Below, piece after piece: positions 59-59,102 of a DNA stretch of 64,000 nt. The stretch's first letter is position 1; every line of letters begins with the position of its first letter. Source of the DNA: Phycisphaerae bacterium (GTDB lineage: Bacteria; Planctomycetota; Phycisphaerae; SM23-33); contig JAFGEJ010000200.1 of the NCBI GenBank assembly GCA_016931655.1, positions 6,015 to 70,014 on the forward strand, in the 5' to 3' direction. Both the position numbers and the translations under genes were made by a program. Below the pieces are notes generated by a model that was not told the origin of the DNA, did no database searches, and saw only the letters and a list, made by a program, of their open reading frames with translations.

Positions 59-3000
59 TTGACGGTATTTCGTCACCTGGGTACGGCCATTCGGAATTCG
101 CAGGACCAGGCCGCCGCGGATCTTCTGTTCCGGGAGGCGGAACTGCGTTTTGAGAGGCTTCGTCGGGATCTCGATTTAAGTCGTCCCCAGCAGGACGAAC
201 TACGGCAACGAGGCTGGCAGGCGCTGGAACAGGCCGTTCGCAAGGACGGACGGCATCTCAAGGCGCGGAAAATGCTTGCCGATTTGCGCGGGACCGTCGC
301 CCAGTACAATCCGGACAGTTCCAAGGCCTGGCTGGAATACATCGAGGAACTCGACGGCGTACTTGCCGTTGACCCTCAGGACGCCGCGATCTATTTCCGT
401 CGCGGACAGGCGTATGCGCACCTGGCGATGACGGACCCCCAGCAGCAGAACAAAGCCGTGGAGGATTTTCGCAAAGCCGTCGAACTGGACAAGACCAAGG
501 TGGAATACTGGGATGCCCTGGCGAGATACCTTGTGTCCATCGACCGCATTTCAGAGGCGGAACAAACCTTCCGGGAGGCGATTCAGGCCAACCCCAACAA
601 GGCGATGCTGCGCGTCAGTTACGCCCGGCTTCTTCGCGGACAAAAACGTCTGGAGGAAGCGAATAAACTCACCCAGGAGGCCATTCAATGCGAGCCATCC
701 AGCCCGTTGGGATATCTCGATCAGGCCGGTGACCTGATCCGCGGGAGGAAATTCGACCCGGCGGAAGAGGTTCTGGAAAAAGCCCGGCAGATTGACAAAA
801 CCGACCCGCAGGTCTACGCGCAGTTCGTTACCCTCTACAGGCTCAAAAAAGATCTCCCCGCCGCGGATCGTATCGTGCGCGAGGGCATCGCGGCGCTGGA
901 TCAAAAAGACGCGGAAGCCGAACCGGACGACAAAATGGCCGCTTTGCGTCGCGGACAGACCCGCGCGATACTGAATTACCTGCTGGCGGAAGTCCTGCTG
1001 GATCAATACGCCTTAAGCAAGGATGAGAAGGAAAAGGAAAAACTTCTTCAGGAGTCGAAAGAGCGCCTCGAAGTTCTTGAGACGCTCAGTCCGAACCAGT
1101 TGCAACAACATCAAATCGCCGGGCGCATTTCCTACTACGAGCAGAAATGGCCCGAAGCGAGGGAATCCCTGGAAAAAGTGGTGGAATATGACACCACACC
1201 ACGCACGGCGATGCTGCTGCTGAACGTCTATCGCCGACTTGGCATTCCCGGGCAAAGTGAAAAACTGGCGGAGAACTTTTTGAAGCGTCGTATTTCTCCC
1301 AGGGTGCGGTTGTTGTTTTTGTTGGAATTGGCGCAACTGCAACTCGATTTGAGGGAATACGATAAAGCACAGGAACTGGTCCACCAGGCGGAGAAGATCG
1401 ATTCCAAGAACGAAAACATTAAGAGATTGCAACAGGCGCTGAACGTCTATCGCGGGAAAACAACGGAAGTTCTTTCCGAGGAAGGCGACGCCGGCCGGGT
1501 GGCGCGCGCCATGCTCTTTCGGCGCGTCCAGGACCTGATATTGAACGACCAGTATGATCAGGCTGAAACGGTTCTGGAAACAATGCTTCAGCACAATCCG
1601 CACGATTTACAGGCGCTGGCACAATTGCTTGCACTGCTGATGGAGAGTCAGAAGCGAGACAAGGCCCTGGAGTGGTTGTCCAAGTCCAGGGCATTGGACC
1701 CGGAAAACGAAGACCTGAAGCGCTTTGAGGACCTGTTAAAAGAATCCTCGATGGAAAAACGGTATGCAATTGAAATGGGGTATGTAGATCGGGCGCCGAC
1801 GGAAGACAAGCTGAACAAAGCCCTGCAGAAATGGAACATTGCAAGGCGATATCGCCGGGAGGAAGACGCTCGAAACTATCTGGATGAAGCCGAAGCGATC
1901 GATCCCAACAATAGTATCGTGGTCAACCTTCGTTTCCGCCAGGCCCTGGCGGGAGAGAACTGGACGGCGGCGGAGGAACTGATCGAACGCATCCCGGAAG
2001 GAGAATCGGGGTATCTTCGGAATCTGCGACGTGCGGAACTGGCGATGGCTCGCGGAGAGGCGGAAACTGCCGGCAGGAAGAAAGAACAGGCAGACGCACA
2101 GTACACCAAGGCGCTGTCTTATCTCCAAAACGTGGTCGAAGCCGCCCCGCATCTGCCCGCCCCCCGCCTGCTGATGGCGGAATCCTATCTCCGGTTGGGC
2201 AAGCGAGAAGACGCACGAAAGCAGTTTCGGGAATGTTACGAAAACAATCGTCAAAATCTTCAAGCCGTTGTGGGTCTGGCCCAACTTGCTCAGGACACCG
2301 GACGTTACGCCGAACGAAACCGCTGGATCGAAGAGGCGTATCAGATTCCTTCCGGAAAGGCGGATCCCTATGTGCGCGAACAATATCTCCAAATCCTGGA
2401 ATCCGACCCCAAAAATCTGGGCGAAGTGATTCACAAACGCGAACAGGTTCTTAAGCATGATCCGGACAACCTGATCAACGCCTTCCGATTGGCGGCGGCG
2501 TATGAGAAATCCGGGCAGATCAATCGCGCGCAGGAAATGATCGAGTACCTTTATCAGCGCACGCCGAACAAAATAACAATCGCTCCGATGTTGGCGGACC
2601 TGTATCTGCGCATGAAACAGCCCCTCAAGGCGGATGAAATGTTCTCCGACCTTCTCAAGGACGCCAAAACCGCGGTGGAGAAAGCCGATATTCGAATCGC
2701 CTACGGGGACTTTCTCGCCCGAAACGATGAAGACGCCGCGGTGCGTATGTACGAAAAGGCCGTCGCCGAGGAAGGGGAAGACGGAACTCACGGATTACGG
2801 GCATTGTCGAATTTCCGGGCGGCTCAGGCGCAGTTTCTGGCGTCCCGGGGAAAAACCACCGAAAGCCAGACAAGGTGGAAAGAATCCATCGACCTGCTGC
2901 AGACCGTCATCAAACGATTGCAGAAAAGCGTGGATTCCCTGCAAGCCAAAGCCGACGGCGACCCGTCCAATTCGGCGGCGCAACAAAATCTTACGCGGGC

Positions 3001-6865: not shown

Positions 6866-6937
6866 GCCGGCGTAGCTCAACGGTAGAGCACAGCTTTTGT
6901 AAAGCTGGGGTTGTGGGTTCGATTCCCTCCGCCGGCT
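6866..6937 (+). tRNA. tRNA-Thr (anticodon UGU)
   Basis: Manual fold. Acceptor GCCGGCG/CGCCGGC, D-arm GCTC-AACGGTA-GAGC, anticodon stem CAGCT/AGCTG with loop TTTGTAA (U33, UGU, A37), T-loop TTCGATT. One U-U mismatch in the T-stem. No encoded CCA. Confidence 0.8.
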
Positions 6938-13208: not shown

Positions 13209-13318
13209 ATGTCATCCTGAGCGGAGCGAAGCGGAGTCGAAGGACCTCACGCCTAACTACCCGTAAGATCCTTCGACTTCGTGTCTCGCTTTGCTCGACA
13301 CTTCGCTCAGGATGACAA
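13209..13318. repeat. MITE/REP-like palindromic element, copy 1 of 3, with GTCATCCTGAGCG...CGCTCAGGATGACAA termini
   Basis: Termini ATGTCATCCTGAGCGGAGCGAAGCGGAGTCGAAGGA ... TCCTTCGACTTCG...CGCTCAGGATGACAA are internally palindromic. The same termini recur at 24098 and 40621. Confidence 0.8.
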
Positions 13319-14904: not shown

Positions 14905-14990
14905 TGCCCGGGACTGGATTTGAACCAGCATGAGGTATAAACCTCACCAGGCCCTCAACCTGGCGCGTCTGCCAATTCCGCCACCCGGGC
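14905..14990 (-). tRNA. tRNA-Leu (anticodon GAG), type II with long variable arm
   Basis: Reverse complement reads GCCCGGGTGGCGGAATTGGCAGACGCGCCAGGTTGAGGGCCTGG-TGAGGTTTATACCTCAT-GCTGGTTCAAATCCAGTCCCGGGCA. Acceptor 7 bp, anticodon loop UUGAGGG, long variable stem-loop, T-loop TTCAAAT. Confidence 0.85.
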
Positions 14991-24097: not shown

Positions 24098-24219
24098 TGT
24101 CATCCTGAGCGAAGGCCCGAACGAAGTGAGGGCCGCAGTCGAAGGATCTAAAGCCTCAAAAGCATCAGGTCCTTCGACTGCGGGGCTCGCTCTGCTCGCC
24201 CCTCCGCTCAGGATGACAA
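24098..24219. repeat. MITE/REP-like palindromic element, copy 2 of 3
   Basis: TGTCATCCTGAGCGAAGGCCCGAACGAAGTGAGG...GTCGAAGGATC ... GGTCCTTCGAC...CCGCTCAGGATGACAAT. Confidence 0.8.
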
Positions 24220-24280: not shown

Positions 24281-25801
24281 TCAGGGAGTTTGTTTTTCCC
24301 AATCCACCATCGCCCTGACCAATGCATCAATGGTGTGCGGCTGGGCGATGACGGTGGGTTCCACGTCCGCGGCGCGGAGCGCGTCGGCCGTCACGGGTCC
24401 GATAGCGGCGATCTTGCAGCCGGCTGGTTTTCCCGCCAGTGTGACGAAATTTTCCACCGTCGAGGACGACGTGAACGTGATCCAATCGACGCGCCCGGTC
24501 TGGAGGGCTTCCTGCGCGGCGGCGGGAAGACCGGCGGGGCGGCGAGTGCAATAGGCGATCACGTTTGTAACGTCGGCCCCGGCGGCGGAGAGAGTTTCAA
24601 CCAGTTCGCGCGGTGCGATGTCCGAGCGGGCAAGCAAAATCCGTTTTTTTGCCATGCCCTGCTCGATCATCGCCCGGCTGAGGGCGGCGGAGGTAAATTC
24701 TTCGGGTACAAGGTCCGCCCGCAGGCCGCCCGCCCGCAGCGCCCGGGCCGTCGCGTCGCCCAATGCGGCGATTCTCACGCCCGCCAGCGCGCGGGCGTCT
24801 CGCCCTGTCGCCGCCAGTCGCTCTAAAACCGCCTCCGCGCCGTTGGGACTGCTCAGCGCCAGCCAGTCGAATTCCGACAGCCGCCCCAAGGCCGCGTCCA
24901 GGTCGCCCCAGTCGTCCGGCGGTGTGATTTCGATGGCCGGCGCCTCGATGACTTCCGCGCCGTACTCCGCCAGAGCAGCCGACAACCGCGACGCCTGCCG
25001 GCGTGACCGCGTCACGAGCACGCATTTGCCCGCCAGCGGCAGGCGCTCGAACCAGCCCCATCGCCGCGACGTTTCCGTGGTCTTTCCGATGATCACAACC
25101 GCCGGGGCCTGGAGCGCCTCGGCTCGGGCGATCTCCGGCAGGGTCGCGAGCGTCGCGCGGATGGTCCGCTGATGCGGCGTTGTGGCGTTTTCCACCGCGA
25201 CGGCCGGCGTGTCGGGCGCCCTGCCGGCCTCCAGGAGACTTCGACAAATTTCCCCCAGCCGTCCCACGCCCATGTAGAACACCACCGTGTCAATGCCCGC
25301 CAGGGCTTTGTAGTTGACGGAGGAGGCTTCCTTCTCCGGGTCCTCGTGGCCGGTGACGAACGCCACGGTGGAGGCGAATCGACGGTCCGTCAGACTCACG
25401 CCCGCGTACGCGCCGGCTGCCAGGGCCGCCGTTACGCCCGGGACGATCCGAAACGCCAGTCCCGCTTCGCACAGGGCGTCGAGTTCTTCTCCGCCGCGGC
25501 CGAAGAGTAACGGATCGCCGCCCTTGAGCCGAACCGTAAGTTTCCCCTCGCGCACCTTCGCCGTCAGCAGGTCGTTGATCTGCTCCTGCGGAATGCTGTT
25601 GCGCGAGGGCGATTTGCCCACGTCGATTTTCTCCGCACTTTCCGGTGCGAGACTCAGCAGGGTCGGGTTCGCCAGGCGGTCGTAGATAACGCACTGGCAA
25701 CGCCTTAGCCACGCCTCGCCCTCGCGCGTGAGCAACCCTTCCGCCCCGGGGCCCGCCCCCAGGAGCACCGCCAGGCCGGTATTGTTCGGCGTGTTCGACA
25801 T
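24281..25801 (-). CDS. cobA-hemD: Bifunctional uroporphyrinogen-III C-methyltransferase / uroporphyrinogen-III synthase (CobA-HemD fusion)
   Basis: N-terminal SUMT domain (LGAGPGAEGLLT...GGDPLLFGRGGEE...), C-terminal HemD-like half. 506 aa. Confidence 0.8.
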   Translation of the reverse strand: MSNTPNNTGLAVLLGAGPGAEGLLTREGEAWLRRCQCVIYDRLANPTLLSLAPESAEKIDVGKSPSRNSIPQEQINDLLTAKVREGKLTVRLKGGDPLLFGRGGEELDALCEAGLAFRIVPGVTAALAAGAYAGVSLTDRRFASTVAFVTGHEDPEKEASSVNYKALAGIDTVVFYMGVGRLGEICRSLLEAGRAPDTPAVAVENATTPHQRTIRATLATLPEIARAEALQAPAVVIIGKTTETSRRWGWFERLPLAGKCVLVTRSRRQASRLSAALAEYGAEVIEAPAIEITPPDDWGDLDAALGRLSEFDWLALSSPNGAEAVLERLAATGRDARALAGVRIAALGDATARALRAGGLRADLVPEEFTSAALSRAMIEQGMAKKRILLARSDIAPRELVETLSAAGADVTNVIAYCTRRPAGLPAAAQEALQTGRVDWITFTSSSTVENFVTLAGKPAGCKIAAIGPVTADALRAADVEPTVIAQPHTIDALVRAMVDWEKQTP

Positions 25802-35883: not shown

Positions 35884-37215
35884 ATGGAACCGGCAATTTC
35901 CGACGCCCTGGACGCGATCCTCTCCCGGGACGCCTGGACGATCAACGATTATCAGGACCTCATGACGGCTCTCTCGACCGCCCCCGGCGCTTCCAACCGC
36001 TGCCGGCAGATTCTGGCGGACCTGGAGGCGAAAAACCCCTCGCCCCGGGGCGCCAAGGCGCTGATGATCGGCATCCTGCGATACATGCTCTGCCGCTTCG
36101 AGGAAGCGATCTCGGTTCTGGCCGACGCGACGGACAACCGGGATCGTCACTTCTTCGCCGGCCAGTGTTATCGCGCCTGCCGCCGGTTCGACCAGGCCGT
36201 CGAGGAATTCGAGCGGGCCAAGGCCCGCGGCTGGGAGGGGCCGGACGGCGACGTGCTGATCGTCGAAGCCCTGGCGATGGGCGGGAAACCCGACCAGGCC
36301 GCTAAAACCCTCAAGGGAATCGCCAGACAGGTCGACGGTACGGCAACGGGATTGTACCTCCAGGGTCTGCTGACGGAACTGGACGGCCGCGGCGAAGAGG
36401 CGGCGGAACTCTACGAACAGGCTCGCGATCTGAACCCGGCACACGGGGAAGCCACGTTTCGCCTGGCCTACTACCTCGACCTGCACGGCCAGGAGGAAGA
36501 GGCGGTCGAACTGTACCGCCAGTGCCTTTCTCATCCCCCCATCCACGCCAGCGCGCTGCTGAACCTGGCCGTCCTGCACGAGGATATGGGACAGTATGAC
36601 AAGGCCATCTCGTGTCTGAAGCGCCTGTTGGCGGTCAATCCGAATCATCCCCGCGCCCGGCTGTTTCTGCGCGACGCCCAGGCGTCACGCCACATGTACT
36701 ACGACGAAGACCAGGCCCGGCGCATCGCCAAGCGCAACGCCGTGCTGGATATCCCCGTAACGGACTTCGAGTTGTCCGTCCGGGCCCGAAACTGCCTCAA
36801 GAAAATGAACATTATGACCCTCGGAGACCTGGTACGCACCACGGAAACCGAACTGCTGGGATACAAAAACTTCGGGGAAACCTCGTTGAAGGAAATCAAG
36901 GACATGCTGGCCGCCAAGGGTCTGCGCCTGGGACAGGACAGTGAAGGCGCCGGCGGGGAATTGGGCGAACTGCTCGAGGAGATCGAGTCGGACGAGCCGG
37001 GCGCCGACCATGGCGCGGCGGCTTTGACCATCGAACAGGTGGAGTTTTCCGTTCGCGCCCGGCGCGTCCTGGAACAACTCAACGTCCGAACCCTCGGCGA
37101 CCTGGCCGCCAAGACCGAAGCCGAACTGCTCAGCCAGAAAAACTTCGGACAAACCAGCCTCGCCGAAATGCGCCAGCGCCTCTCGGAAAACGGATTGCAT
37201 TTCCGGGAAATGTAA
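35884..37215 (+). CDS. TPR-repeat protein with two C-terminal RNA-polymerase alpha-subunit CTD-like domains
   Basis: N-terminal about 280 aa of TPR. Two repeats follow: FELSVRARNCLKKMNIMTLGDLVRTTETELLGYKNFGETSLKEIKDMLAAKGLRLG and VEFSVRARRVLEQLNVRTLGDLAAKTEAELLSQKNFGQTSLAEMRQRLSENGLHF. Both closely match the RpoA alpha-CTD consensus (LTVRSANCLK...IGDLVQRTE.ELL...NLGKKSLTEIKDVL). Confidence 0.8.
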   Translation: MEPAISDALDAILSRDAWTINDYQDLMTALSTAPGASNRCRQILADLEAKNPSPRGAKALMIGILRYMLCRFEEAISVLADATDNRDRHFFAGQCYRACRRFDQAVEEFERAKARGWEGPDGDVLIVEALAMGGKPDQAAKTLKGIARQVDGTATGLYLQGLLTELDGRGEEAAELYEQARDLNPAHGEATFRLAYYLDLHGQEEEAVELYRQCLSHPPIHASALLNLAVLHEDMGQYDKAISCLKRLLAVNPNHPRARLFLRDAQASRHMYYDEDQARRIAKRNAVLDIPVTDFELSVRARNCLKKMNIMTLGDLVRTTETELLGYKNFGETSLKEIKDMLAAKGLRLGQDSEGAGGELGELLEEIESDEPGADHGAAALTIEQVEFSVRARRVLEQLNVRTLGDLAAKTEAELLSQKNFGQTSLAEMRQRLSENGLHFREM

Positions 37216-38584: not shown

Positions 38585-39247
38585 TTATGTTTCCCGTCCC
38601 GCGGCGCTGAGGGTGCGGAAGACCGGCCCGGGCGGGGCCAGGCGGTGCGGTTGGGTGATCTCGCGCGTTTTGAGGAACCGCACGCCCTTGGCGTTCATTC
38701 GGCTGTAGGCCATTCCCGCGGCCGGATCGTCCAATCCCAGCACCGCGTCGGTCGCCAGCGTCACACGAAAACCGCGCGCCCGCAGCCCCACCGCCGCCTG
38801 GACAATCCCGTGGGCCACGCCCGCACCGCAGAGAACAAATTCCACGGAGGGCAGTTCGCTCAGCAGACGCTCCGCGCGGGCGTGCAGAAAAATATCCGTG
38901 TTGCGCTTCTCGAAGATCACCTGCCGGTACTGCTCGAACAGGTCGTCCGGCAGGTCCGTGGTGTTCAGCAGGCCGAGGTTCAGGTACGGCCTGACAATGG
39001 TCTTGAAGAGCTTCCTCTCGCCGGGCGTGCCTTCCACACAGTGCGGCTTATCCGCCAGCGGACCGATGCGTCCGTCCGGCACGCGCAGAACGGTGCTCAG
39101 GATCGGATGATCGTTCCGCTTCGCCCAGTCGAACAGGCTGTAGATGTTAGATCGGGCCGCGTCCGCCTCGTGGGTGTAGCAGCGCCCCTGGGAGAGAAAG
39201 AAATCCCGTTGCACTTCAATGTCGAGCAGAATCAAATCATACGTCAT
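38585..39247 (-). CDS. Isochorismatase-family (cysteine hydrolase) protein
   Basis: MTYDLILLDIEVQRDFF ... FVLCGAGVAHGIVQAAVGLRARGFRVTLATDAV. Typical D/K/C arrangement. 220 aa. Confidence 0.6.
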   Translation of the reverse strand: MTYDLILLDIEVQRDFFLSQGRCYTHEADAARSNIYSLFDWAKRNDHPILSTVLRVPDGRIGPLADKPHCVEGTPGERKLFKTIVRPYLNLGLLNTTDLPDDLFEQYRQVIFEKRNTDIFLHARAERLLSELPSVEFVLCGAGVAHGIVQAAVGLRARGFRVTLATDAVLGLDDPAAGMAYSRMNAKGVRFLKTREITQPHRLAPPGPVFRTLSAAGRET

Positions 39248-39411
39248 GGCCCACCTCCCTTCCCGGGCCTGGGCTTTCCCCTAACCTCCAGATCATTGTA
39301 GGCGCACAACAGACGGGGCGGGGCAAAGGCCCCTTTATATTTAGACGAACGTTTCTCCCGGAGGGTTCGGGGAAAATGGAACTTTTTTGCCCGTTCGAGC
39401 TTTGAGCCTCG

Positions 39412-40599
39412 CTATCGAACGGTCAGGAAAAATTCCATGAGATTCGCGCCGGCGTCGATGTGCAGGTCGCTTTGGCGTGCATTTGCCTCGGTGAACGAAC
39501 CGGTCAGGACGTGCTCCATGCGTTTTCCGGCGATGGCAAACGGCACGGCTTCGGACGTATGCGTGCGAAGCCGGCAGGGCGTGGGGTGGTCCGGCAGGAC
39601 GAGGATGCGCCACTCGTCGCCCTCGGCCTGGAGGCGCTCCAGCAGCGGTGCGATGATTTTCTCGTCGATTCGCTCCAGGCCGACGAGTTTCGCCTTGCCG
39701 TCGGCGTTGTGCCCGGCTTCGTCCGGGCCTTCCAGGTGCACGAGCACCAGGTCGTGGGTGTCGAGGGCTTCGACGGCGGCGGCGGCTTTGCCTTCGTAGT
39801 TCGTGTCCACCAGTCCGGTCGCGCCGGGCACGTCGATCACGTCCCAGCCGATCAGCCGCGAAAGCCCGCGAACCAGATCGACGGCGGTGATCGCGGCGCC
39901 CCGTACGCCGAATCGCTCCTCGAAGCCGGGCAGTTGGGGCATCTTGCCCTGCCCCCACAGCCAGATGTTCGTGGCGGGATTTTCGCCCAGTTCCCGGCGG
40001 ACGGCGTTGATTTCCTCTCCCGCCAGGAGCGTTTCCGCCGCGGCCATGAGCTTGCGCAGCCGTTCGGCGCCCCGGCCGGTCGGAAGGTGATCGTCGGCCT
40101 TTCGGCCGAGAATGTCATGCGGCGGGATCGTCTGAACGTCGAAGTCGGCGTCTATGGTTGTCAGGTGGCGGTAGCTCACGCCGGGATAAAAATGCACGCC
40201 GATTTCGCCAAGAGCGGCCTGGAGCTTCCGAAGGATCTCCCCGCCTTCCTCGGTCGTGATATGCCCCGCGGAGTGATCCTCCATCACGCCGTCGATAATC
40301 GTCACGAGATTGCAGCGGAAAATCCACGCCTCCGGCGGGACGGTCAGTCCCTGTGCGGCGGCCTCCAGCGGCGCCCGGCCGGTGTAGAACTCGACAGGGC
40401 TGTAGCCCAGGACCGAAAGAATCGCCACGTCCGAACCGGGGGCCATATCGGCGGGGATATTCCGCACCGTACCGATTCGTCCATGCTTGGCGATCCAGTC
40501 CATGTTCGGCGTGCGGGCCGCCTCCAGGGGCGTCTTGCCGCCGAGTTCCTCCAGCGGTTCGTCGGCCGCCCCGTCCGGTATGATGATGGCGTATTTCAT
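39412..40599 (-). CDS. Archaeal-type cofactor-independent phosphoglycerate mutase homolog (ApgM family). Family members next to hom have been proposed as non-canonical homoserine kinases.
   Basis: Start at MKYAIIIPDGAADEP (ATG 40599). Alkaline-phosphatase-superfamily metal ligands (...VLPDHPTP..., ...HLEGPDEAGH...). 395 aa. Immediately downstream of hom. Confidence 0.75.
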   Translation of the reverse strand: MKYAIIIPDGAADEPLEELGGKTPLEAARTPNMDWIAKHGRIGTVRNIPADMAPGSDVAILSVLGYSPVEFYTGRAPLEAAAQGLTVPPEAWIFRCNLVTIIDGVMEDHSAGHITTEEGGEILRKLQAALGEIGVHFYPGVSYRHLTTIDADFDVQTIPPHDILGRKADDHLPTGRGAERLRKLMAAAETLLAGEEINAVRRELGENPATNIWLWGQGKMPQLPGFEERFGVRGAAITAVDLVRGLSRLIGWDVIDVPGATGLVDTNYEGKAAAAVEALDTHDLVLVHLEGPDEAGHNADGKAKLVGLERIDEKIIAPLLERLQAEGDEWRILVLPDHPTPCRLRTHTSEAVPFAIAGKRMEHVLTGSFTEANARQSDLHIDAGANLMEFFLTVR

Positions 40600-40620
40600 T
40601 TTTGTTACCCAGCTATCTTT

Positions 40621-40754
40621 GTTGTCATCCTGAGCGAAGTCGCGTGTGAGCGAAGCGAACATCGCGACGAAGTCGAAGGACCTTATGGGATTGAGGAGGC
40701 GAGGTCCTTCGGCTTCGACTCTCGCTACGCTCGAGTCTTCGCTCAGGATGACAA
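40621..40754. repeat. MITE/REP-like palindromic element, copy 3 of 3, inserted between hom and the apgM-like gene
   Basis: GTTGTCATCCTGAGCGAAGTCGCG...GAAGTCGAAGGACC ... GGTCCTTCGGCTTCGAC...GTCTTCGCTCAGGATGACAA. Confidence 0.8.
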
Positions 40755-40780
40755 TGGATGTTATTTTGTTTAATGAACCG

Positions 40781-42106
40781 TTACAACTCCTCCGGGTACT
40801 CCTCCACAATCCCAATGCACACGCTTTTGCCTTTCACGACGTTCAGGGCGTCGATTTCGGCCACGGCGTTGCGGACGTTGCCCTCGCGGGCGTGGTGGGT
40901 CGTGATGATCACGGGCACGCCCCCAGCCGAGGCGCTGTGGGGTTCCTGCTGAAGGACGGAGGTGATGCTGATTTCGTGCTTACCCAGAATCGCGGCGATC
41001 TGTCCGAAGACGCCGGGTGCGTCCTGGCAGGTGATGCGGAGATAGTAGCGACTCTGGACGGCCTCGATGGGCAACTGCTCCGCCTTCTCGGACAGGTCGG
41101 GCCAGAGCTTCAACTGGGCGAACTGATTCTGCCACGCCCCCATCGCCAGGGAGAGAATGTCCGCCGCCACCGCCGAGGCCGTCGGTTTTCCGCCCGCGCC
41201 GCGTCCGTAGTACATCGTATGGCCGGTGGCGTGGCCGTACACACTCACCGCGTTGAACGGCCCGGAAACCCACGCCAGCGGATGCTCTTTCGAGATGAAC
41301 GCCGGGCGGACGCGCAGGGATAAGCCATCGTCCTGGCGAGAGGCGATCGCAAGCAGCTTCACGACGTATCCGAGCTGCTGGCCGAAGGCCACGTCGCACA
41401 ACTCCAGCGTGTCGATGCCCTCGACGGGAATCGCGTCGTAGTCGATTTTCCGCCCGAACGCCAGCGAGGCCAGAATGGCCAGCTTGTGGGCCGAGTCCTC
41501 GCCGGAGACGTCCAGTGTGGGGTCGGCCTCGGCAAGGCCCGCCTTCTGTGCCTCGGCCAGTACGTCGGCGTAGCTTCGGCCGGCAGTGGTCATCTCCGTG
41601 AGAATGAAATTGCACGTACCGTTGACAATGCCATACAGCGCGTCGAGACGATTGGCAATCAACCCGCCCGTCAGCGCGCGGATGATCGGAATCCCTCCGG
41701 CACAACTGGCCTCGAACGCGATGCTCACATTCTGCCGCCGCGCAAGGGCGTACAGTTCCGCCCCGGCGTGGGCGAGCAGGGCCTTGTTCGCCGTCACCAC
41801 GTGCTTGCCGGCACGGAGGGCTTTTTCCATCACGTCCCGCGCGATGGTTTGCCCGCCGATCAGTTCCACGACGACGTGCACGTCCTTGTCGTCGAGAACC
41901 TTTTGGATATCCGTACAAAACAGAGCCTCGTCCAGGCCGAGGCTGCGGGCGTGGTCGAAGTTCACGTCCACGACGTAGCGCAGAACCACAGCCGGGGCAC
42001 ATCGGCCGGCGAGAACCTCCCGGTCGCGAGTCAAAAGCTGCGCCGCCGCGCCACCTACCGTACCGCAGCCGACAATCGCCACTCCAAACTGAACGGATTC
42101 AGACAT
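40781..42106 (-). CDS. hom: Homoserine dehydrogenase (with C-terminal ACT domain)
   Basis: ATG 42106 preceded by AAGGAG. VAIVGCGTVGG is an NAD-binding motif. Catalytic region and ACT tail follow. 441 aa. Confidence 0.88.
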   Translation of the reverse strand: MSESVQFGVAIVGCGTVGGAAAQLLTRDREVLAGRCAPAVVLRYVVDVNFDHARSLGLDEALFCTDIQKVLDDKDVHVVVELIGGQTIARDVMEKALRAGKHVVTANKALLAHAGAELYALARRQNVSIAFEASCAGGIPIIRALTGGLIANRLDALYGIVNGTCNFILTEMTTAGRSYADVLAEAQKAGLAEADPTLDVSGEDSAHKLAILASLAFGRKIDYDAIPVEGIDTLELCDVAFGQQLGYVVKLLAIASRQDDGLSLRVRPAFISKEHPLAWVSGPFNAVSVYGHATGHTMYYGRGAGGKPTASAVAADILSLAMGAWQNQFAQLKLWPDLSEKAEQLPIEAVQSRYYLRITCQDAPGVFGQIAAILGKHEISITSVLQQEPHSASAGGVPVIITTHHAREGNVRNAVAEIDALNVVKGKSVCIGIVEEYPEEL

Positions 42107-42383
42107 TATCTCGTGTCTCCTTGCAACCACAAATCATGGTATGCGCCCCAACGAAAAAACGCAAGAACGTGTCACCTTCAAGCGAGTTTTTCAAAAAACG
42201 AGCTTGTGGGTGCCTGGGGAAGCGGGAAGCCGGGAGCAGGCAGCAGAGAAAATGAAGCACCCACAAAAATAGCGAGTTTCGATGAAACGTTCGATTTTTG
42301 AAGGCGCCACATTTCAGGCAAGAACATGACACTCTTGCCGAGGAAAGGAATGGACAGTACGATACCCCCCAAAGGGATTCCCC

Positions 42384-53418: not shown

Positions 53419-54459
53419 TTACTTCCCGATGTTCAGAAGCTCATCGGAGAACTCCGCCAGACCGATGCCCTGGGACGGGTTCGGGAGCGGTTCATCGCCG
53501 TAACGCGGTTTTCCATCGTGCACGGCGGCCAGGCCGGTGTAGAACAGCAGAACTTTACCCCGCCACCGGACGGGCTGAGCCACAGCGATCACGCTGCCGC
53601 AATCGAATCCACCCCGCGGACCGAGCGGAAGAATGGGTGTTCTGTCATTCTCGCGTTTCCACACCCAGCCGTTCGGACTGCTCAGAAGCTGCACGTCCAT
53701 TGTCTGATCTTCGGTATGGTGACAGTTCAGCAGTCCGCCGAAACCGCCCGCTGTCGTCCGGAAAGGCGTCAGCCAATAAAACTGCACGTCGGGAACGTCC
53801 TGCTCGTCGGGTTCGAAAATCGTGATCGGCCCCCGCCAGCCGCCCGCGAAATCCTCCGCCACCCAGAGCGAAATCCGCCGGTGCATGTACTTCAGGTTGT
53901 CCCGATCGGCGGGCAGGAGCGGATTGTACTTCCAGGTCTGCTGGTAGATGAGGGTTGTGGCCTTTTTGCGGGTCGGGTCCAGGTTTGGTTCGGTGGTAAT
54001 CATGGACATGGCGTCGTTGTGGTTGATAATCACCGGCCGCGTGTGCACGGGCTGCCAGTCCAGGCCGTCAGCGCTTTGGGCGAGGCAGATTCCCGCCTTC
54101 ATCGACTCGTCAGGCCGATCCCAATACACCATTTTCCACCGGCGGGCCGGATCGGTTTCTTGCGGGTTTCGGAGAATCGTCGCGGGCATGAATTCGCCCC
54201 AGCCGCACTGGTTGCCGCAGCCGCGCATGACGATATTGGTTCCGTCGCCGCAATCCGGTTTTGTCCAGGCACAGCCGTCCCGCGATCGGGCAAGGCAAAG
54301 CACATTGTTCAGCGACTTGTCCTCGAACCGAACCAGGTAATACAAAAGAAGATCGTCGGTTTCCTCGTCCGGAATCGCGGCGACGGCGAGAAACGACGAA
54401 TCCTTTTCCCATTCCTGATCGGCGGGGAAAATCGGCTGGGAAGATCGGTTCAAAAGCAT
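53419..54459 (-). CDS. Hypothetical beta-propeller glycoside-hydrolase-like protein (GH43/GH32/GH117-like fold, tentative)
   Basis: 346 aa, Trp/Gly-rich repeats (WGEFMPATI..WKMVYWD..WQPVHTRPVIINHND..). No signal peptide. Confidence 0.35.
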   Translation of the reverse strand: MLLNRSSQPIFPADQEWEKDSSFLAVAAIPDEETDDLLLYYLVRFEDKSLNNVLCLARSRDGCAWTKPDCGDGTNIVMRGCGNQCGWGEFMPATILRNPQETDPARRWKMVYWDRPDESMKAGICLAQSADGLDWQPVHTRPVIINHNDAMSMITTEPNLDPTRKKATTLIYQQTWKYNPLLPADRDNLKYMHRRISLWVAEDFAGGWRGPITIFEPDEQDVPDVQFYWLTPFRTTAGGFGGLLNCHHTEDQTMDVQLLSSPNGWVWKRENDRTPILPLGPRGGFDCGSVIAVAQPVRWRGKVLLFYTGLAAVHDGKPRYGDEPLPNPSQGIGLAEFSDELLNIGK

Positions 54460-54759
54460 GCTCTATCCTCTTGTTGAGTTTCAATCCTTCCACTTCTTGG
54501 AAAATTTCAGGACAAGCGAATGGACTCTCTAGGAATTTCTCTGATATACTTACAAGACGAGAAGACTATCCGGATATTTTGACGGCTGCAAGAATACATT
54601 TTCCCGTATCGGATAGATTGACCAAGTCCGCTGGATAAGCCGTTTGTGGGTACATATGCATAAATATCGCCTGTATCTTACGAATCGTTTTTTTCGCGAT
54701 AAACTTTACTATCGAATAGAAGTTAGCGATCTTGGAAAACAAATTTCCCTGCAACAAAA

Positions 54760-55701
54760 TTGCATCAGAGAGAAAGGCCTGGCGACGTGCGAGTAAATAA
54801 TATTCCACAAGCTTTTCCCTACCAAGGAAGCAAGCGAAAGCTAGCGTCAGTGATTCTCGCCTGTATTCCGAAAAACACACGCCGACTGGTGGAACCATTT
54901 GCGGGTTCCGCTGCCATATCGGTGGCGGCTGCCTGGAATGAAAGGGTAGATTCGTTTTGGCTCAATGATGCACATTCGCCTCTCATGGCACTATGGAATG
55001 CCATTCTCAACGCTCCCCTTGCTCTTGCCGACGACTATGAGAAAATCTGGACGGCGCAGCAGGGACGCGAAAAAGAGTATTACAATGCTGTCCGGGACAG
55101 ATTTAATCGGGATTCCCAGCCGGCGGATTTCCTTTTTCTCCTAGCACGATGCGTAAAAGCGGCGATTCGATATAACAGGAGTGGAGAATTCAATAACAGT
55201 CCGGATCACCGCCGTCTCGGAATGAAACCGGAGACAATGCGCAAAAATATCCTGATGGTTCACGAGGTATTGCGAGACCAGACAATGCTCACAACAGGGG
55301 ACTTCAGGGCGGTTCTTCGAAAGACGCGAAAAACAGATTTTGTCTATATGGACCCGCCATATCAAGGGGTCTGTAAAAATAGGGATAACCGATACGCGAA
55401 AAGCGTGGTATTCGAGGAATTTGTTAAGGAATTGAACGCTTTGAACGAGAGACAAATTCCCTTCATTGTCAGCTATGACGGCCGCACGGGAAACACGATA
55501 TACGGGGAGAAATTGCCTGAGTCCCTTGATTTGTTTCACAGTGAAATTTTTGTCGGAAGATCCACGCAGGCGACATTACTTGGCCGAAGTCACGATACAT
55601 ATGAATCGCTGTACCTGTCTCCGTTAGCGGTAAGAAGACTTGGTGATATTCCGAGAGTTCTTCGGGAAAACGAATCGACGGTTCAACTGTTGTTCGATTA
55701 A
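54760..55701 (+). CDS. Dam-family (D12 class, alpha group) N6-adenine DNA methyltransferase
   Basis: AFPYQGSKRKL...LVEPFAGSAAIS is the AdoMet-binding motif I region and VYMDPPYQG is the DPPY motif IV. Collinear with E. coli Dam. TTG 54760, or GTG 54787 with AGAAAGG upstream. AT-richer than the flanks. Confidence 0.8.
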   Translation: MHQRERPGDVRVNNIPQAFPYQGSKRKLASVILACIPKNTRRLVEPFAGSAAISVAAAWNERVDSFWLNDAHSPLMALWNAILNAPLALADDYEKIWTAQQGREKEYYNAVRDRFNRDSQPADFLFLLARCVKAAIRYNRSGEFNNSPDHRRLGMKPETMRKNILMVHEVLRDQTMLTTGDFRAVLRKTRKTDFVYMDPPYQGVCKNRDNRYAKSVVFEEFVKELNALNERQIPFIVSYDGRTGNTIYGEKLPESLDLFHSEIFVGRSTQATLLGRSHDTYESLYLSPLAVRRLGDIPRVLRENESTVQLLFD

Positions 55702-56435
55702 TGGGTTCTTTTCATCGTGTTTTTAATGAATACAACCAGGGAGACGCCGGTTTGTTCGCACCGTTTCCGCAATCGCTCATATTCCGCCACTTCCTCCGGT
55801 CCTATCCAGACAATCTCAACTCTGCGTCTCTCCTCCATTGCTATATGCTCATATTTTTCCGGGGAAGCCCAATAACATCGTTTACACGTTGCCGATCGTT
55901 TGAACTCCATCCAATTCCTGCAATGTTCACAAGACCAGCTTTTTTGTCGTTGCGCCGCCGTTGAAATCAACATAAATGCTGAAGGGTTCTCTTCGCCTGA
56001 AATTTGATCGCCCGCCACTTCATATGGAATTCGATGGTCTATGGAAAGATATCGCGGATGAAACGGTTCGCCCGTGATCGCGCAAACGGCCCCTCGTTGT
56101 TCAACGAGTAGTTTCTTGAATGCTTTTGAAAATACTTTTCGTCCTCCAAGTTTATGATGTTCAATTTTTGAAGGATCGCCGAAAATATATGCCGCGATAA
56201 GACGTCCGTCAGAATTACGAACTCGGATCGTATCTAGGGGAATTCCCTGTTCCCGAACATCGCGCGCGGCACGCGGAGCGTGGTTGTAACCGTATATATT
56301 TTTGAGATCCTCCGTTGTAATTTTACCGTGTTTTAGAATGTGGTTTATGACAGCCAGTGGTCGTTTGCCTGTAACTCTTCTGATCTGTGCTCGTATTTTC
56401 GGATGAACTTTCGCCATACTATTCTCATTCAACAC
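55698..56435 (-). CDS. HNH-family endonuclease, putative restriction endonuclease partner of the methyltransferase
   Basis: SIDHRIPYEVAGD ... CEHCRNW ... CKRCYW form an HNH core with Cys pairs. Convergent with the MTase and overlapping it by 4 nt. Same AT-richer composition. The start could be MAK at 56417. Confidence 0.6.
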   Translation of the reverse strand: MLNENSMAKVHPKIRAQIRRVTGKRPLAVINHILKHGKITTEDLKNIYGYNHAPRAARDVREQGIPLDTIRVRNSDGRLIAAYIFGDPSKIEHHKLGGRKVFSKAFKKLLVEQRGAVCAITGEPFHPRYLSIDHRIPYEVAGDQISGEENPSAFMLISTAAQRQKSWSCEHCRNWMEFKRSATCKRCYWASPEKYEHIAMEERRRVEIVWIGPEEVAEYERLRKRCEQTGVSLVVFIKNTMKRTH

Positions 56436-56657
56436 GTTGAAAATTTACTTCGTAACGCGGATGCGCGGAACTATGTGGCCTTCCCGTCGTAAAAGGATGA
56501 AATCACAGAACATATTTTATTTTCTGAAATTTGCGCATGTTATAACCGCCAAGAGGGAACCCGGCAATTTTAATTTGACGCCAGGCATTGGCGAAAAGGA
56601 TTTCATTACTGAGTACGGTTTCTCAAAACGCGCGAAACATCATTCTGGTGGAACAGA

Positions 56658-57512
56658 TCATCCCATGGGAATGGTTCCGACGGCGCGGAAGCGGCCTGGC
56701 GTCATGCCCAGGATGTGCTTGAAGGTGCGCGTGAAATGCGCGGGCGCGTCGTAGCCGAGGCGCACGGCGATTTCCTTGTGCGTCAGTTGGGTGGTTTTGA
56801 GCAGCCGGCAGGCCAGCAGCATCTTTTGCCGCAGCATATACCGCCGCGGCGTCCGGGAGGTCTGCTCCTTGAAGATGCGCGTCAGGTGCTCGCGCGAGAC
56901 CCTCAGCCGCTCCGCCAGCTCCGATACGTTCATGTTTTCGTGCAGGGTCTCGCGGATGATCTCGACGGCCCGGGCGGCCAGGCGGTTGCCCATATTGTCC
57001 TGACGGGGTTGTTCTTTGCTCTCGGCCAGCTCCGTCAGAAGACGTATCGCCAGCCGGCTGGCGAAGGCGGGGGAAATCCGAGGCCGGGCGTCATGGTAAT
57101 CGGCGAAAGACAGCATCTCCGCCACGACGCCGTCCTCACGCGGCAATTCATACACCGGCCCGTAGCGATGCAGCAGTTCACGCACCATCTCGAAGGCCGG
57201 CGCACCGGTAATGCTCATGTACACGAACGACCAGGGCTTGCTCGCGGCGGCGGGATAATAGTAGGCCGTCGCGGGATCGCGGATTTCACACAGAAACCCG
57301 CACCCGGCTGGGATTCGATGCTCGCCCGCGGCGTCGCGGAACACACCCTCCCCAGCCAGCGTGTATTTGAACAGGCAGGTCTCCTCCCTTCGCCGATATC
57401 GGCCTTCATGATGATACGACGGCTTGGAAACCGTCTCGCTGGCGACGGTGATTGCCCGCGGCAATGACGCCATCGGACGAAAGATCTGAAAATTCACGGC
57501 CCAGTGAATCAT
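56658..57512 (-). CDS. AraC/XylS-family transcriptional regulator (cupin + dual HTH)
   Basis: C-terminal ...MNVSELAERLRVSREHLTRIFKEQT...LTHKEIAVRLGYDAPAHFTRTFK... Divergent from the GH4 glycosidase gene. Confidence 0.8.
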   Translation of the reverse strand: MIHWAVNFQIFRPMASLPRAITVASETVSKPSYHHEGRYRRREETCLFKYTLAGEGVFRDAAGEHRIPAGCGFLCEIRDPATAYYYPAAASKPWSFVYMSITGAPAFEMVRELLHRYGPVYELPREDGVVAEMLSFADYHDARPRISPAFASRLAIRLLTELAESKEQPRQDNMGNRLAARAVEIIRETLHENMNVSELAERLRVSREHLTRIFKEQTSRTPRRYMLRQKMLLACRLLKTTQLTHKEIAVRLGYDAPAHFTRTFKHILGMTPGRFRAVGTIPMG

Positions 57513-57704
57513 GATATCACAAATTGGATAGTAATATCATTATTATACCCTTGCAACTTATATTTTGTGAGATATTCTTGATATTGAGGATGTGCACAAA
57601 ATGGTAAATTCATTGGTTGGTTGACCGGCGAATTGGCAACTCGGCCTATCGAGATGAGAGACAAACAGATGGAGTATTCCATCCGTCGAAGGAGTTGAAG
57701 AGAC

Positions 57705-59102
57705 ATGCCGAAAATTACGTTTCTTGGTGCGGGCAGCATGGTGTTTGCCAAGAATATTCTGGGCGATTCCATGCTCAAGCCGGCCTTGCGGGACAGCCAC
57801 ATCGCGCTGTATGACATTGACCCCGAGCGATTGAGCGACTCGAAGTTGATGCTCGAGAACCTGAACGCCAACATCAACGAAAATCGCTCGAAGATCACCA
57901 CCCACCTGGGCGTGGAAAACCGCAAAAAAGCACTCGACGGCGCGGATTACGTCATCAACGCCATCCAGGTCGGCGGATACAAACCCTCGACGGTGATCGA
58001 CTTTGAAATCCCGAAGAAATACGGCCTGCGGCAGACCATCGCCGATACGCTGGGCATCGGCGGCATCTTCCGGGCGCTGCGGACGATTCCGGTGATGTTC
58101 GATTTCGCGCGGGAGATGGAAACGGTCTGCCCGAACGCCTGGCTGCTGAATTACACCAACCCGGCCTCCATGAACGCCGGGGCCATGCTGCGCGGCACGG
58201 GCGTCAAGACCGTGGCCCTTTGCCATTCCGTACAAAATTGCGCAAGGAAACTTCTCCAAATCCTTCAGATGCTCGATGACGTGAAAGACCTGCGTTGGCG
58301 GATCGCGGGGATCAATCACCAGGCCTGGCTGCTGGACATCCGCGACGGGAACAGGGATTTGTACCCGGAGGTCCGCCGGCGCGGCGCCGAGGCGCTGAAA
58401 AAGCTCCGCAAACTCGGCGGCGCGAAGGTCGAGGCAGACGCCAGAAAACGCCTGGGCGACAAATGGCGGGACGATCCCGACGCGTGCATCGCCCATAATA
58501 TGGTCCGCCTGGAGATCATGAACCAGTTCGGATATTACCATACCGAGTCGTCCGAACACGCCAGCGAATACGTCCCCTGGTTCATCAAGGCCGGGCATCC
58601 CGAACTGATCGACGAATATAACATCCCGCTGGATGAATACATCACCCGCTGCATCGACCAGATTGAGAACTGGAAAAAGCAGCGAAAGGAATTGGTGGGC
58701 AAGGCCCTGACGCATGAACAAACGCAGGAGTTCGGTTCGGGGATCATGAACGCCATGGAAACCGACGTGCCGTTCCGCATTCACGGTAACGTGTTGAATA
58801 ACGGCCTAATCACCAACCTGCCGTCTAAAGCCGTCGTGGAAGTACCCTGCCTTGTGGACAAGAACGGCGTGCAGGGATGCTACGTCGGCGATCTGCCGGA
58901 AGTCTGCGCCGCGATCAATCGCCTCAGCATCAACGTGCAGTTGCTGACGCTCGAAGCGTTGCTGACGGGAAAGAAGGACCCGGTCTACCAGGCCGCGATG
59001 CTCGATTCACACGCGGCGGCGGAACTGACCCTCGATGAAATCCGAAACATGTGCGACGACCTCTTCGAGGCCCACGGCGACATGCTGCCGAAATTGACGT
59101 AA
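57705..59102 (+). CDS. GH4-family NAD/Mn-dependent glycosidase (alpha-galactosidase/alpha-glucosidase, MelA/AglA-like)
   Basis: MPKITFLGAGSMVFA is the Rossmann motif. ...LNYTNP... and ...ALCHSV... are GH4 signatures. 465 aa. Confidence 0.8.
   Translation: MPKITFLGAGSMVFAKNILGDSMLKPALRDSHIALYDIDPERLSDSKLMLENLNANINENRSKITTHLGVENRKKALDGADYVINAIQVGGYKPSTVIDFEIPKKYGLRQTIADTLGIGGIFRALRTIPVMFDFAREMETVCPNAWLLNYTNPASMNAGAMLRGTGVKTVALCHSVQNCARKLLQILQMLDDVKDLRWRIAGINHQAWLLDIRDGNRDLYPEVRRRGAEALKKLRKLGGAKVEADARKRLGDKWRDDPDACIAHNMVRLEIMNQFGYYHTESSEHASEYVPWFIKAGHPELIDEYNIPLDEYITRCIDQIENWKKQRKELVGKALTHEQTQEFGSGIMNAMETDVPFRIHGNVLNNGLITNLPSKAVVEVPCLVDKNGVQGCYVGDLPEVCAAINRLSINVQLLTLEALLTGKKDPVYQAAMLDSHAAAELTLDEIRNMCDDLFEAHGDMLPKLT

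What the first reader, a model, noticed from the sequence alone, without database searches (positions are those of the whole stretch)
39412..42106. hom followed by an ApgM-type phosphoglycerate-mutase homolog: a candidate non-canonical homoserine kinase route to threonine
Homoserine dehydrogenase is immediately upstream of an archaeal-type cofactor-independent PGM homolog, with no thrB in between. Established family annotation (TIGRFAMs, 'proposed homoserine kinase' subfamily of ApgM) describes exactly this context in genomes lacking ThrB. A MITE-like element sits between the two genes.
Basis: partly seen in the sequence, partly recalled or inferred. Interest (0 to 1): 0.5.

Follow-up and report, generated by a model that had tools for sequence, protein, structure and literature searches.

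The report
Known alternative homoserine kinase (HomK) operon
Two adjacent genes in a Phycisphaerae (Planctomycetota) genome fragment encode homoserine dehydrogenase and a member of the already described HomK/ThrB2 family, a phosphoglycerate-mutase look-alike that replaces the usual homoserine kinase in threonine synthesis; it is an ordinary member whose public name, "phosphoglycerate mutase", is probably wrong.

Summary
On the minus strand, hom (40781-42106, 441 aa) is followed after a 181-nt spacer by a 395-aa ApgM-type protein (39412-40599). No thrB or thrC lies between them or anywhere in the 64 kb.

The protein passes TIGR02535 ("proposed homoserine kinase", 503 bits against a 446 cut-off) and fails the archaeal PGM equivalogs. 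It keeps the catalytic Ser56 and the metal ligands. It has Glu290 where solved archaeal PGMs have Lys, which is the published HomK signature. In 63 of 78 testable related loci hom lies directly upstream on the same strand. Five loci from other phyla have thrC immediately upstream of homK; in four of these hom precedes thrC.

Published work names the family ThrB2/HomK. BT2402 mutants need threonine, and BT2402 and DET_RS08350 rescue E. coli thrB. The phosphate donor is unknown.

The "MITE-like" spacer element is real. It is a 133-nt palindrome with three copies in the window, and it sits at the same site in an 84%-identical relative. At least 120 metagenome stretches match it. None of 121 copies shows a target-site duplication, so it resembles a REP-type element more than a classical MITE.

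Absence of thrB from the whole genome could not be tested.

The parts
40781..42106 (-). hom, homoserine dehydrogenase with a C-terminal ACT domain (441 aa plus stop)
   Evidence: NF004976 at 493 bits. Pfam NAD_binding_3, Homoserine_dh and ACT. The orthologue in L001 is 85% identical over all 441 aligned residues.
40600..40780 (-). hom-homK intergenic spacer (181 nt; median about 29 nt in relatives)
   Evidence: Read from the sequence. Spacer lengths in 63 related loci run from overlap to 272 nt, median 29.
40622..40754 (.). Palindromic repeat element inserted in the spacer. Outer arms 40622-40644 / 40732-40754, inner arms 40668-40683 / 40702-40717, with a side hairpin on each arm.
   Evidence: Inverted repeats. 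As RNA it folds at -74.4 kcal/mol, z = -7.6. It aligns with two other window copies. The same family sits at the same site in L001. No Rfam match.
39412..40599 (-). homK (ThrB2 / TIGR02535), an ApgM-type homoserine phosphotransferase (395 aa plus stop). Key residues: D9, S56, H113, W213, W215, E290, D293, H297, D337, H338, H347.
   Evidence: TIGR02535 at 503.4 against a 446.3 cut-off; archaeal aPGM equivalogs are failed. Glu290 aligns with Lys in 2zkt and 3kd8. Key residues are conserved in 82 homologues.
42107..42383 (-). Region upstream of hom, shared with the divergent adenylate/guanylate cyclase gene at 42384 (+). It presumably holds the operon promoter.
   Evidence: Inferred from gene layout. 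The scan found no sigma-70-like site and Rfam found no RNA family.
13211..13316 (.). Second copy of the palindromic element, between two co-directional minus-strand genes
24099..24217 (.). Third copy of the palindromic element, between the secA-like and cobA/hemD-like genes (both on the minus strand)

Best explanation
This is a two-gene hom-homK operon for the homoserine branch of threonine synthesis in a Phycisphaerae bacterium.

Hom reduces aspartate semialdehyde to L-homoserine. HomK belongs to the alkaline-phosphatase-superfamily, ApgM-like clade known as TIGR02535, ThrB2 or HomK. It takes a phosphoryl group from a donor that has not been identified onto Ser56 in a two-metal site (D9, S56, D337, H338 and D293, H297, H347). 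It then passes the phosphoryl group to the gamma-hydroxyl of homoserine. The product is O-phospho-L-homoserine for threonine synthase, which is encoded elsewhere. Glu290 is proposed to bind the substrate's alpha-amino group.

Shown here: family membership by score, the signature and catalytic residues, and conserved linkage to hom, thrC, asd and lysC. Taken from the literature: the genetic proof of function in two family members. Inferred: activity of this particular protein, the donor, and co-transcription.

The palindromic element in the spacer is a repeated REP-like insertion. It is not a threonine-specific regulator. At most it forms a strong hairpin in the mRNA that could affect the relative expression of the two genes.
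For: - TIGR02535 scores 503.4 bits, above its 446.3 cut-off. The archaeal aPGM equivalogs NF003104 (282 against 489) and NF003160 (168 against 468) are failed.
- The solved archaeal aPGMs 2zkt and 3kd8 behave the opposite way. They pass NF003104 (576 and 525) and fail TIGR02535 (321 and 273) and NF003242 (320 and 278).
- I aligned 80 clade members with 2zkt and 3kd8. Exactly one column is Glu in the clade (80 of 80) and Lys in both PGMs, and that column is E290. Further discriminating columns are H113/R, W215/R, W213/L, V58/T and P336/G. The PGM motif D-R-R-A-G-R becomes D-[HYF]-S-A-G-H. Several cationic residues of the PGMs are therefore lost.
- D9, S56, D293, H297, D337, H338 and H347 are conserved in 81 of 82 homologues. 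The exception has Thr at position 56.
- hom lies directly upstream on the same strand in 63 of 78 testable loci. thrC is immediately upstream of homK in 5 loci from other phyla. asd lies upstream in L060 and lysC downstream in L076.
- Literature: BT2402 is needed for growth without threonine, and BT2402 and DET_RS08350 rescue E. coli thrB::kan. E299 is given as the specificity residue. thrB and thrB2 occur in complementary sets of genomes: 278 of 300 thrB2 genomes lack thrB (PMC9026213).
Against: - No experiment exists on this protein or on any planctomycete orthologue.
- Only 64 kb of the genome was visible, so a canonical thrB elsewhere is not excluded. The separate PGM that would be expected was not seen either.
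- thrC is not linked to homK here.
- NCBI's NF003242 names the clade 'cofactor-independent phosphoglycerate mutase', and that model scores slightly higher (521.9) than TIGR02535.
- I mapped BT2402 E299 to E290 from a constant numbering offset of 9 (D346/H347 to D337/H338) and from the column being unique. I did not have the BT2402 sequence. The preprint's other ligand numbers (D274, H278, H325) do not fit that offset.
- The reported complementation of E. coli thrB by BT2402 was weak (OD increase 0.14 after 47 h), and an earlier attempt had failed.
Confidence: 0.85

Rival explanations
1. The protein is what NCBI calls it, a genuine cofactor-independent phosphoglycerate mutase of glycolysis, and its position next to hom is incidental.
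For: It is clearly homologous to solved archaeal aPGMs (E = 1e-58). It passes NF003242, named 'cofactor-independent phosphoglycerate mutase', and the TIGR00306 apgM subfamily model. The catalytic Ser and metal site are intact. No other PGM was seen in the window.
Against: - It fails both archaeal aPGM equivalog cut-offs.
- The solved aPGMs fail NF003242, so that model describes the HomK clade and its name was never tested against them.
- The Lys and three Arg residues shared by both PGMs are replaced by Glu, His/Tyr/Phe, Ser, His and Trp.
- Linkage to hom, thrC, asd and lysC holds across phyla.
- Two family members complement thrB.
Confidence: 0.05
2. It is a phosphotransferase of the HomK type, but its physiological substrate is another hydroxy-amino acid. 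One example would be L-threonine, giving threonine-O-3-phosphate for cobalamin, as proposed for cobD-linked homologues. Alternatively its O-phosphohomoserine feeds methionine rather than threonine.
For: The Glu signature is shared with cobD-linked homologues that are speculated to make threonine phosphate. thrC is not adjacent here. A cobA/hemD fusion gene lies in the window at 24281-25801.
Against: The gene is linked to hom, not cobD. The Pfam scan of the window named no cobD-type aminotransferase. The score is higher on TIGR02535 than on TIGR00306, unlike the cobD-linked proteins. hom adjacency holds in 63 of 78 loci, and thrC lies beside homK in five loci from other phyla.
Confidence: 0.05
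3. The spacer element is a threonine-specific regulatory RNA (attenuator or riboswitch) that controls homK.
For: It has a very stable predicted fold (-74.4 kcal/mol, z = -7.6). It lies between two genes of one pathway. It is retained at the same site in the 84%-identical relative.
Against: - The same element lies between unrelated genes at 13.2 kb and 24.1 kb. It also lies downstream of homK in an Omnitrophota genome.
- At least 120 metagenome stretches match it.
- Most relatives have a spacer of 0-40 nt with no element.
- There is no Rfam match and no U-tract after the hairpin.
Confidence: 0.03

Closest known systems
HomK / ThrB2 / TIGR02535 (BT2402 of Bacteroides thetaiotaomicron; DET_RS08350 of Dehalococcoides mccartyi)
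   Same: It scores above the TIGR02535 trusted cut-off. It has D9 and S56 at the same numbering as BT2402, the Glu signature, the same metal-ligand motifs, and a gene on the same strand next to hom.
   Different: The lineage is Phycisphaerae, which the papers read here do not mention. The operon is hom-homK only. Bacteroidetes have thrA-like/thrB2/thrC, and other phyla sampled here have hom-thrC-homK. A palindromic repeat is inserted in the spacer. No experiment exists for this protein.
Archaeal-type cofactor-independent phosphoglycerate mutase (ApgM; PDB 2zkt from Pyrococcus horikoshii, 3kd8/3idd from Thermoplasma acidophilum)
   Same: Same fold and domain pair (Metalloenzyme plus PhosphMutase), the same catalytic Ser and the same two-metal ligands.
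   Different: It fails the aPGM equivalog models. Lys290 is replaced by Glu. The D-R-R-A-G-R motif becomes D-H-S-A-G-H, and Arg215 becomes Trp. The gene context is amino-acid synthesis, not glycolysis.
ThrB (GHMP-family ATP-dependent homoserine kinase)
   Same: The same pathway step and product, O-phosphohomoserine, by inference from complementation in the literature.
   Different: There is no sequence or fold relationship and no nucleotide-binding domain. No GHMP domain occurs in the protein or in the window. The donor is probably not ATP.
ThrH (phosphoserine:homoserine phosphotransferase of Pseudomonas aeruginosa, HAD family)
   Same: It is a precedent for making O-phosphohomoserine by phosphotransfer from a non-nucleotide donor. 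The HomK preprint cites it as the functional analogy.
   Different: The fold is unrelated (HAD against alkaline-phosphatase superfamily). The donor for HomK is unknown.
REP/BIME-type repetitive extragenic palindromes and MITEs
   Same: The spacer element is short (92-133 nt), non-coding, palindromic, multi-copy and intergenic, and it lies between co-directional genes.
   Different: None of 121 copies has a target-site duplication, so a defining MITE feature is missing. I found no associated transposase or RAYT, though I did not search for one systematically. The longer variants carry side hairpins.

Membership tests
HomK / ThrB2 / TIGR02535 | Score above the TIGR02535 trusted cut-off | tested here: met
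   503.4 bits against 446.3
HomK / ThrB2 / TIGR02535 | Glu at the specificity position (E299 of BT2402) where PGMs have Lys | tested here: met
   E290 aligns with Lys in 2zkt and 3kd8. It is the only column that is Glu in 80 of 80 clade members and Lys in both PGMs. The equivalence to BT2402 E299 rests on a numbering offset of 9 shared with D346/H347; I did not have the BT2402 sequence.
HomK / ThrB2 / TIGR02535 | Catalytic Ser and two-metal ligands retained | tested here: met
   D9, S56, D293, H297, D337, H338 and H347 are present here and in 81 of 82 homologues
HomK / ThrB2 / TIGR02535 | Encoded near other threonine-pathway genes (hom, thrC, asd) on the same strand | tested here: met
   hom ends 181 nt upstream on the same strand. 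The arrangement is conserved in 63 of 78 loci.
HomK / ThrB2 / TIGR02535 | Genome lacks canonical thrB (complementary occurrence) | not testable with these tools
   Only the 64-kb window is available. It holds no thrB. The rest of the genome could not be read.
HomK / ThrB2 / TIGR02535 | Forms O-phosphohomoserine / rescues a thrB mutant | not testable with these tools
   Shown only for BT2402 and DET_RS08350 in the literature
Archaeal-type cofactor-independent PGM (ApgM equivalogs NF003104 / NF003160) | Score above the equivalog cut-off | tested here: not met
   281.9 against 489 and 167.8 against 468. 2zkt and 3kd8 pass NF003104.
Archaeal-type cofactor-independent PGM (ApgM equivalogs NF003104 / NF003160) | Cationic residues shared by solved aPGMs (Lys at column 290, the D-R-R-A-G-R motif, Arg at column 215) | tested here: not met
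   The window protein has E290, D-H-S-A-G-H and W215. That these residues bind phosphoglycerate is an inference, not something shown here.
ApgM superfamily (TIGR00306 subfamily model; Pfam PF10143 plus PF01676) | Domain pair and subfamily-level score | tested here: met
   TIGR00306 at 482.6 against 320. PF10143 at 1e-51 and PF01676 at 6e-43.
ThrB (GHMP homoserine kinase) | GHMP kinase domains | tested here: not met
   No GHMP Pfam hit in the protein or in the window ORFs. tblastn with E. coli ThrB gives E > 0.1.
MITE | Terminal inverted repeats, small size, no ORF, multiple copies | tested here: met
   Arms of 23 nt at 91% complementarity. Three copies in the window and at least 120 metagenome stretches.
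MITE | Target-site duplication flanking each copy | tested here: not met
   Direct-repeat matches of 2-5 nt at four boundary offsets stay near chance in 121 copies: 0 of 121 for 4 or 5 nt, and 5-12 against 7.6 expected for 2 nt
MITE | Related autonomous transposon with the same termini | not tested
   I did not search for a transposase that carries these termini

The most novel reading that the evidence does not exclude
The spacer palindrome may belong to an undescribed family of structured hairpin elements that occurs in more than one phylum and leaves no target-site duplication. Members run from 92 to 133 nt, and the longer forms carry side hairpins whose stems differ between copies but stay complementary. 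Under this reading the copy has been kept inside the hom-homK operon since the ancestor shared with the 84%-identical relative because it sets the Hom:HomK expression ratio, for example as an mRNA-stabilising or processing hairpin. It would then not be neutral junk.
Probability: 0.12. Interest if true: 0.4.

Novelty: already known. Interest (0 to 1): 0.18.

Why it matters
The practical value lies in annotation. This clade is propagated in public databases as "cofactor-independent phosphoglycerate mutase" (model NF003242). Pathway reconstructions for Phycisphaerae and other Planctomycetota will therefore report a missing homoserine kinase and a spurious PGM.

The alignment made here adds a few discriminating residues to the single published one: H113, W213, W215, and loss of the D-R-R-A-G-R motif. 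These argue against phosphoglycerate as a substrate and could guide the search for the real phosphate donor. That donor is the remaining open question for the family. Nothing in this window makes the question easier to test than existing model organisms do.

Tried and rejected
- **Exact-sequence look-up.** Looking up the window protein's contig found no record, so I could not reach the rest of the genome. The only genome-contig scan went on homK relatives, and the window's own assembly was not among the species representatives it returned.
- **E. coli ThrC as a probe.** It was too divergent. It missed the thrC genes that NCBIfam later confirmed in L061 and L069. I repeated the window search with those bacterial ThrC sequences and it was still negative.
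- **BT2402 sequence.** I could not obtain it, so the E299 mapping is indirect. The preprint's D274, H278 and H325 ligand numbers are inconsistent with its own D346/H347 under any single offset to this protein. I set them aside.
- **Promoter and terminator scan.** It gave no promoter, and the terminator-like count was at chance (5 found against 4.2 expected). The hairpin at 39320-39333 has its T-run on the plus strand only, so it is not a clear homK terminator.
- **Rfam.** It found only two tRNAs in the window.
- **Literature search for the element's terminal sequence.** It returned one irrelevant primer match.
- **Structure prediction.** I did not run it. Sequence matches to solved structures at E = 1e-58 already fix the fold, and the tool does not return coordinates for measuring distances.
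- **Spacer as a threonine attenuator.** Rejected, because the same element lies between unrelated genes.
Full report
**1. What is there**

The window is a Phycisphaerae (Planctomycetota) metagenome-assembled contig. The ApgM-type protein is 100% identical to an NCBI entry from a 70,057-nt contig. That entry is named [quoted passage not shown].

Both genes of the finding lie on the minus strand.
- hom runs from the ATG at 42106 to the TAA at 40783-40781 and encodes 441 aa.
- The second gene runs from the ATG at 40599 to the stop at 39414-39412 and encodes 395 aa.

Hom matches NF004976 at 493 bits. It has the NAD-binding, catalytic and ACT domains.

The second protein has the Metalloenzyme and PhosphMutase domain pair. 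Its NCBIfam scores are:

| Model | Description | Score (bits) | Cut-off | Result |
|---|---|---|---|---|
| NF003242 | "cofactor-independent phosphoglycerate mutase" | 521.9 | 426 | pass |
| TIGR02535 | "proposed homoserine kinase" | 503.4 | 446.3 | pass |
| TIGR00306 | broad apgM subfamily | 482.6 | 320 | pass |
| NF003104 | archaeal aPGM equivalog | 281.9 | 489 | fail |
| NF003160 | archaeal aPGM equivalog | 167.8 | 468 | fail |

**2. No thrB or thrC in the window**

A Pfam scan of 40 predicted ORFs across the 64 kb found no GHMP kinase, no threonine synthase and no other PGM. tblastn with E. coli ThrB and ThrC gave nothing better than E = 0.1. Two bacterial ThrC probes taken from related loci also gave nothing.

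The gene downstream of homK is an isochorismatase-family gene at 38585-39247 on the minus strand. It is not conserved in relatives: L001 has a Maf gene there and L002 a large unannotated protein. The conserved unit is therefore hom-homK.

**3. Homoserine enzyme or phosphoglycerate mutase?**

Three independent lines favour the homoserine enzyme.

(a) Model behaviour. The solved archaeal aPGMs 2zkt and 3kd8 pass NF003104 (576 and 525 bits). They fail both TIGR02535 (321 and 273) and NF003242 (320 and 278). Diverse bacterial relatives of the window protein pass both of the latter models. NF003242 and TIGR02535 therefore describe the same clade under two conflicting names. The "PGM" name comes from homology only.

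(b) Residues. Pairwise alignments to 2zkt and 3kd8 put window E290, in H-L-E-G-P-D293-E-A-G-H297, opposite Lys in both PGMs. I then aligned 80 clade members with both PGMs using MAFFT. Exactly one column is Glu in the clade (80 of 80) and Lys in the PGMs. The other clean discriminators are:
- H113 against Arg
- W215 against Arg
- W213 against Leu
- V58 against Thr
- P336 against Gly

The PGM motif D-R-R-A-G-R is D-[HYF]-S-A-G-H in the clade, and E294 is invariant. D9, S56, D293, H297, D337, H338 and H347 are kept in 81 of 82 homologues. The one exception has Thr at the nucleophile position. The phosphotransfer machinery is therefore intact, but the residues that differ are mostly cationic ones lost. 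I infer that the pocket no longer suits an anionic phosphoglycerate.

(c) Gene context. I obtained 80 loci from species-representative genomes, plus two more by exact look-up.
- hom lies directly upstream on the same strand in 63 of 78 loci that have enough upstream sequence. The median spacer is about 29 nt, and in some loci the genes overlap.
- In five loci from other phyla thrC is immediately upstream of homK. In four of them the order is hom-thrC-homK. Two of the thrC genes were confirmed as TIGR00260.
- asd precedes homK in a Spirochaetes MAG, and aspartate kinase follows it in another MAG.

**4. What is already known**

TIGRFAMs curators proposed that TIGR02535 replaces homoserine kinase.
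- In B. thetaiotaomicron, BT2402 mutants need threonine (GapMind preprint 10.1101/741918).
- Ashniev et al. named the family ThrB2. They showed complementary occurrence with thrB, with 278 of 300 thrB2 genomes lacking thrB, and operons with thrC and asd-hom (PMC9026213).
- The GapMind 2026 preprint (10.1101/2024.10.14.618325) reports that BT2402 and the diverged DET_RS08350 rescue E. coli thrB::kan. It renames the family HomK.
- The same preprint identifies S56 as the catalytic serine and E299 as the specificity residue, where PGMs have Lys. It argues that the donor is not ATP and probably not phosphoglycerate, and suggests phosphoserine.

The window protein has D9 and S56 at the same numbers as BT2402. 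The offset of 9 that maps BT2402 D346/H347 onto window D337/H338 also maps E299 onto E290.

The preprint's other ligand numbers (D274, H278, H325) do not fit this offset, and I could not obtain the BT2402 sequence. The mapping is therefore indirect. It is supported by the Glu/Lys column being unique.

**5. Mechanism**

Shown here: the protein belongs to the HomK clade by score, signature residues and context.

Taken from the literature: clade members supply the homoserine-kinase function in vivo.

Inferred: this protein accepts a phosphoryl group on Ser56 in its two-metal site from an unidentified non-nucleotide donor. It then transfers the group to homoserine made by the co-transcribed Hom. 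The product, O-phosphohomoserine, goes to a ThrC encoded elsewhere.

I put 0.85 on this reading. The rivals are:
- a true PGM (0.05)
- a related phosphotransferase with another hydroxy-amino-acid substrate or a different pathway role (0.05)

**6. The spacer element**

The 181-nt spacer carries a 133-nt palindrome at 40622-40754. It has 23-nt outer arms, 16-nt inner arms and a side hairpin on each arm. As RNA the spacer folds at -74.4 kcal/mol (z = -7.6). No U-tract follows the hairpin, and it ends 22 nt before the homK ATG.

Distribution of copies:
- The 16-nt terminal motif occurs six times in the window against 0.04 expected. This makes three elements (13211-13316, 24099-24217 and the spacer copy), all between co-directional minus-strand genes.
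- A 92-nt form sits at the orthologous site, with similar flanks, in the 84%-identical relative.
- Another copy lies just after homK in an Omnitrophota MAG.
The modal length is 92-94 nt. The window's spacer copy is the longest seen.

The arms of the 93-nt class stay complementary, with compensatory changes at 16 of 44 arm positions. This is expected of any palindromic DNA element. Only a T before and an A after the termini are conserved. None of 121 copies shows a target-site duplication. Rfam has no match, and a text search for the terminal sequence found nothing relevant.

The element is thus a real, widespread palindromic repeat. It is better compared with REP-type elements than with a classical MITE. 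It is not specific to threonine genes. Any effect on hom/homK expression is speculation.

**7. Verdict**

The system is an ordinary member of a family that is described and partly validated by experiment, so both novelty and interest are low.

Points of use:
- The clade's database name is probably wrong.
- The alignment adds discriminating residues that strengthen the case against a phosphoglycerate substrate.

Still untested: whether thrB is absent from the whole genome, what the phosphate donor is, and any direct assay of this protein.

Noticed in passing
window 13211-13316 and 24099-24217: Two further copies of the palindromic element. Each fills an intergenic gap between co-directional minus-strand genes: a LolA-like and a VTT-domain gene, and the secA-like and cobA/hemD fusion genes. 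The 13-kb copy has a side hairpin on one arm only.
   Followed up: partly
metagenome loci L084-L163 and others: The element family is abundant in JGI metagenomes. The commonest form is 92-94 nt, with a conserved stem of about 25 bp (GTCATCCTGAGCGAAGCGAAGGACC...) and a variable interior. There is no target-site duplication. I found no description of it in Rfam or in the paper library.
   Followed up: partly
NCBIfam models NF003242 and TIGR02535: The two models score the same clade almost identically, and solved archaeal PGMs fail both. Yet one is named 'cofactor-independent phosphoglycerate mutase' and the other 'proposed homoserine kinase'. The PGM name is what reaches GenBank records for this clade.
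   Followed up: yes
L069 6001-7209 (Myxococcales MAG): This HomK homologue lies in a hom-thrC-homK operon and has Thr instead of Ser at the nucleophile position 56. It is the only exception among 82 homologues.
   Followed up: no
L015 12741-13124: A second ApgM-family paralogue fragment, 32% identical over residues 2-130, lies about 5.6 kb downstream of homK in a planctomycete MAG. It could be the organism's true PGM. The locus ends before the Glu/Lys column.
   Followed up: no
preprint 10.1101/2024.10.14.618325, Appendix 3: The metal-ligand numbers given for BT2402 (D274, H278, H325 against D346, H347) cannot all belong to one numbering if the usual D-x-x-x-H ... D-H ... H motif order holds. 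This is probably a numbering mix-up in the text.
   Followed up: partly
window 35884-37215 (+): A 443-aa protein combines TPR repeats with two copies of the RNA polymerase alpha-subunit C-terminal domain (PF03118, two stretches). This is an unusual architecture for a protein that is not RpoA.
   Followed up: no
window 54001-58000: G+C drops to 0.49-0.53 against about 0.60 elsewhere. The region holds ORFs with no Pfam match, and an AraC-type regulator and a GH4 glycosidase lie at its edge. It may be horizontally acquired.
   Followed up: no
window 59-4513 (+): A very long ORF (1484 aa) lies in a stretch with strong A-over-T skew (0.16-0.20 over the first 6 kb). I did not scan it against any family library.
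   Followed up: no
window 6866-6937 (+) and 14905-14990 (-): Two tRNA genes. They are the only Rfam matches in the window.
   Followed up: no
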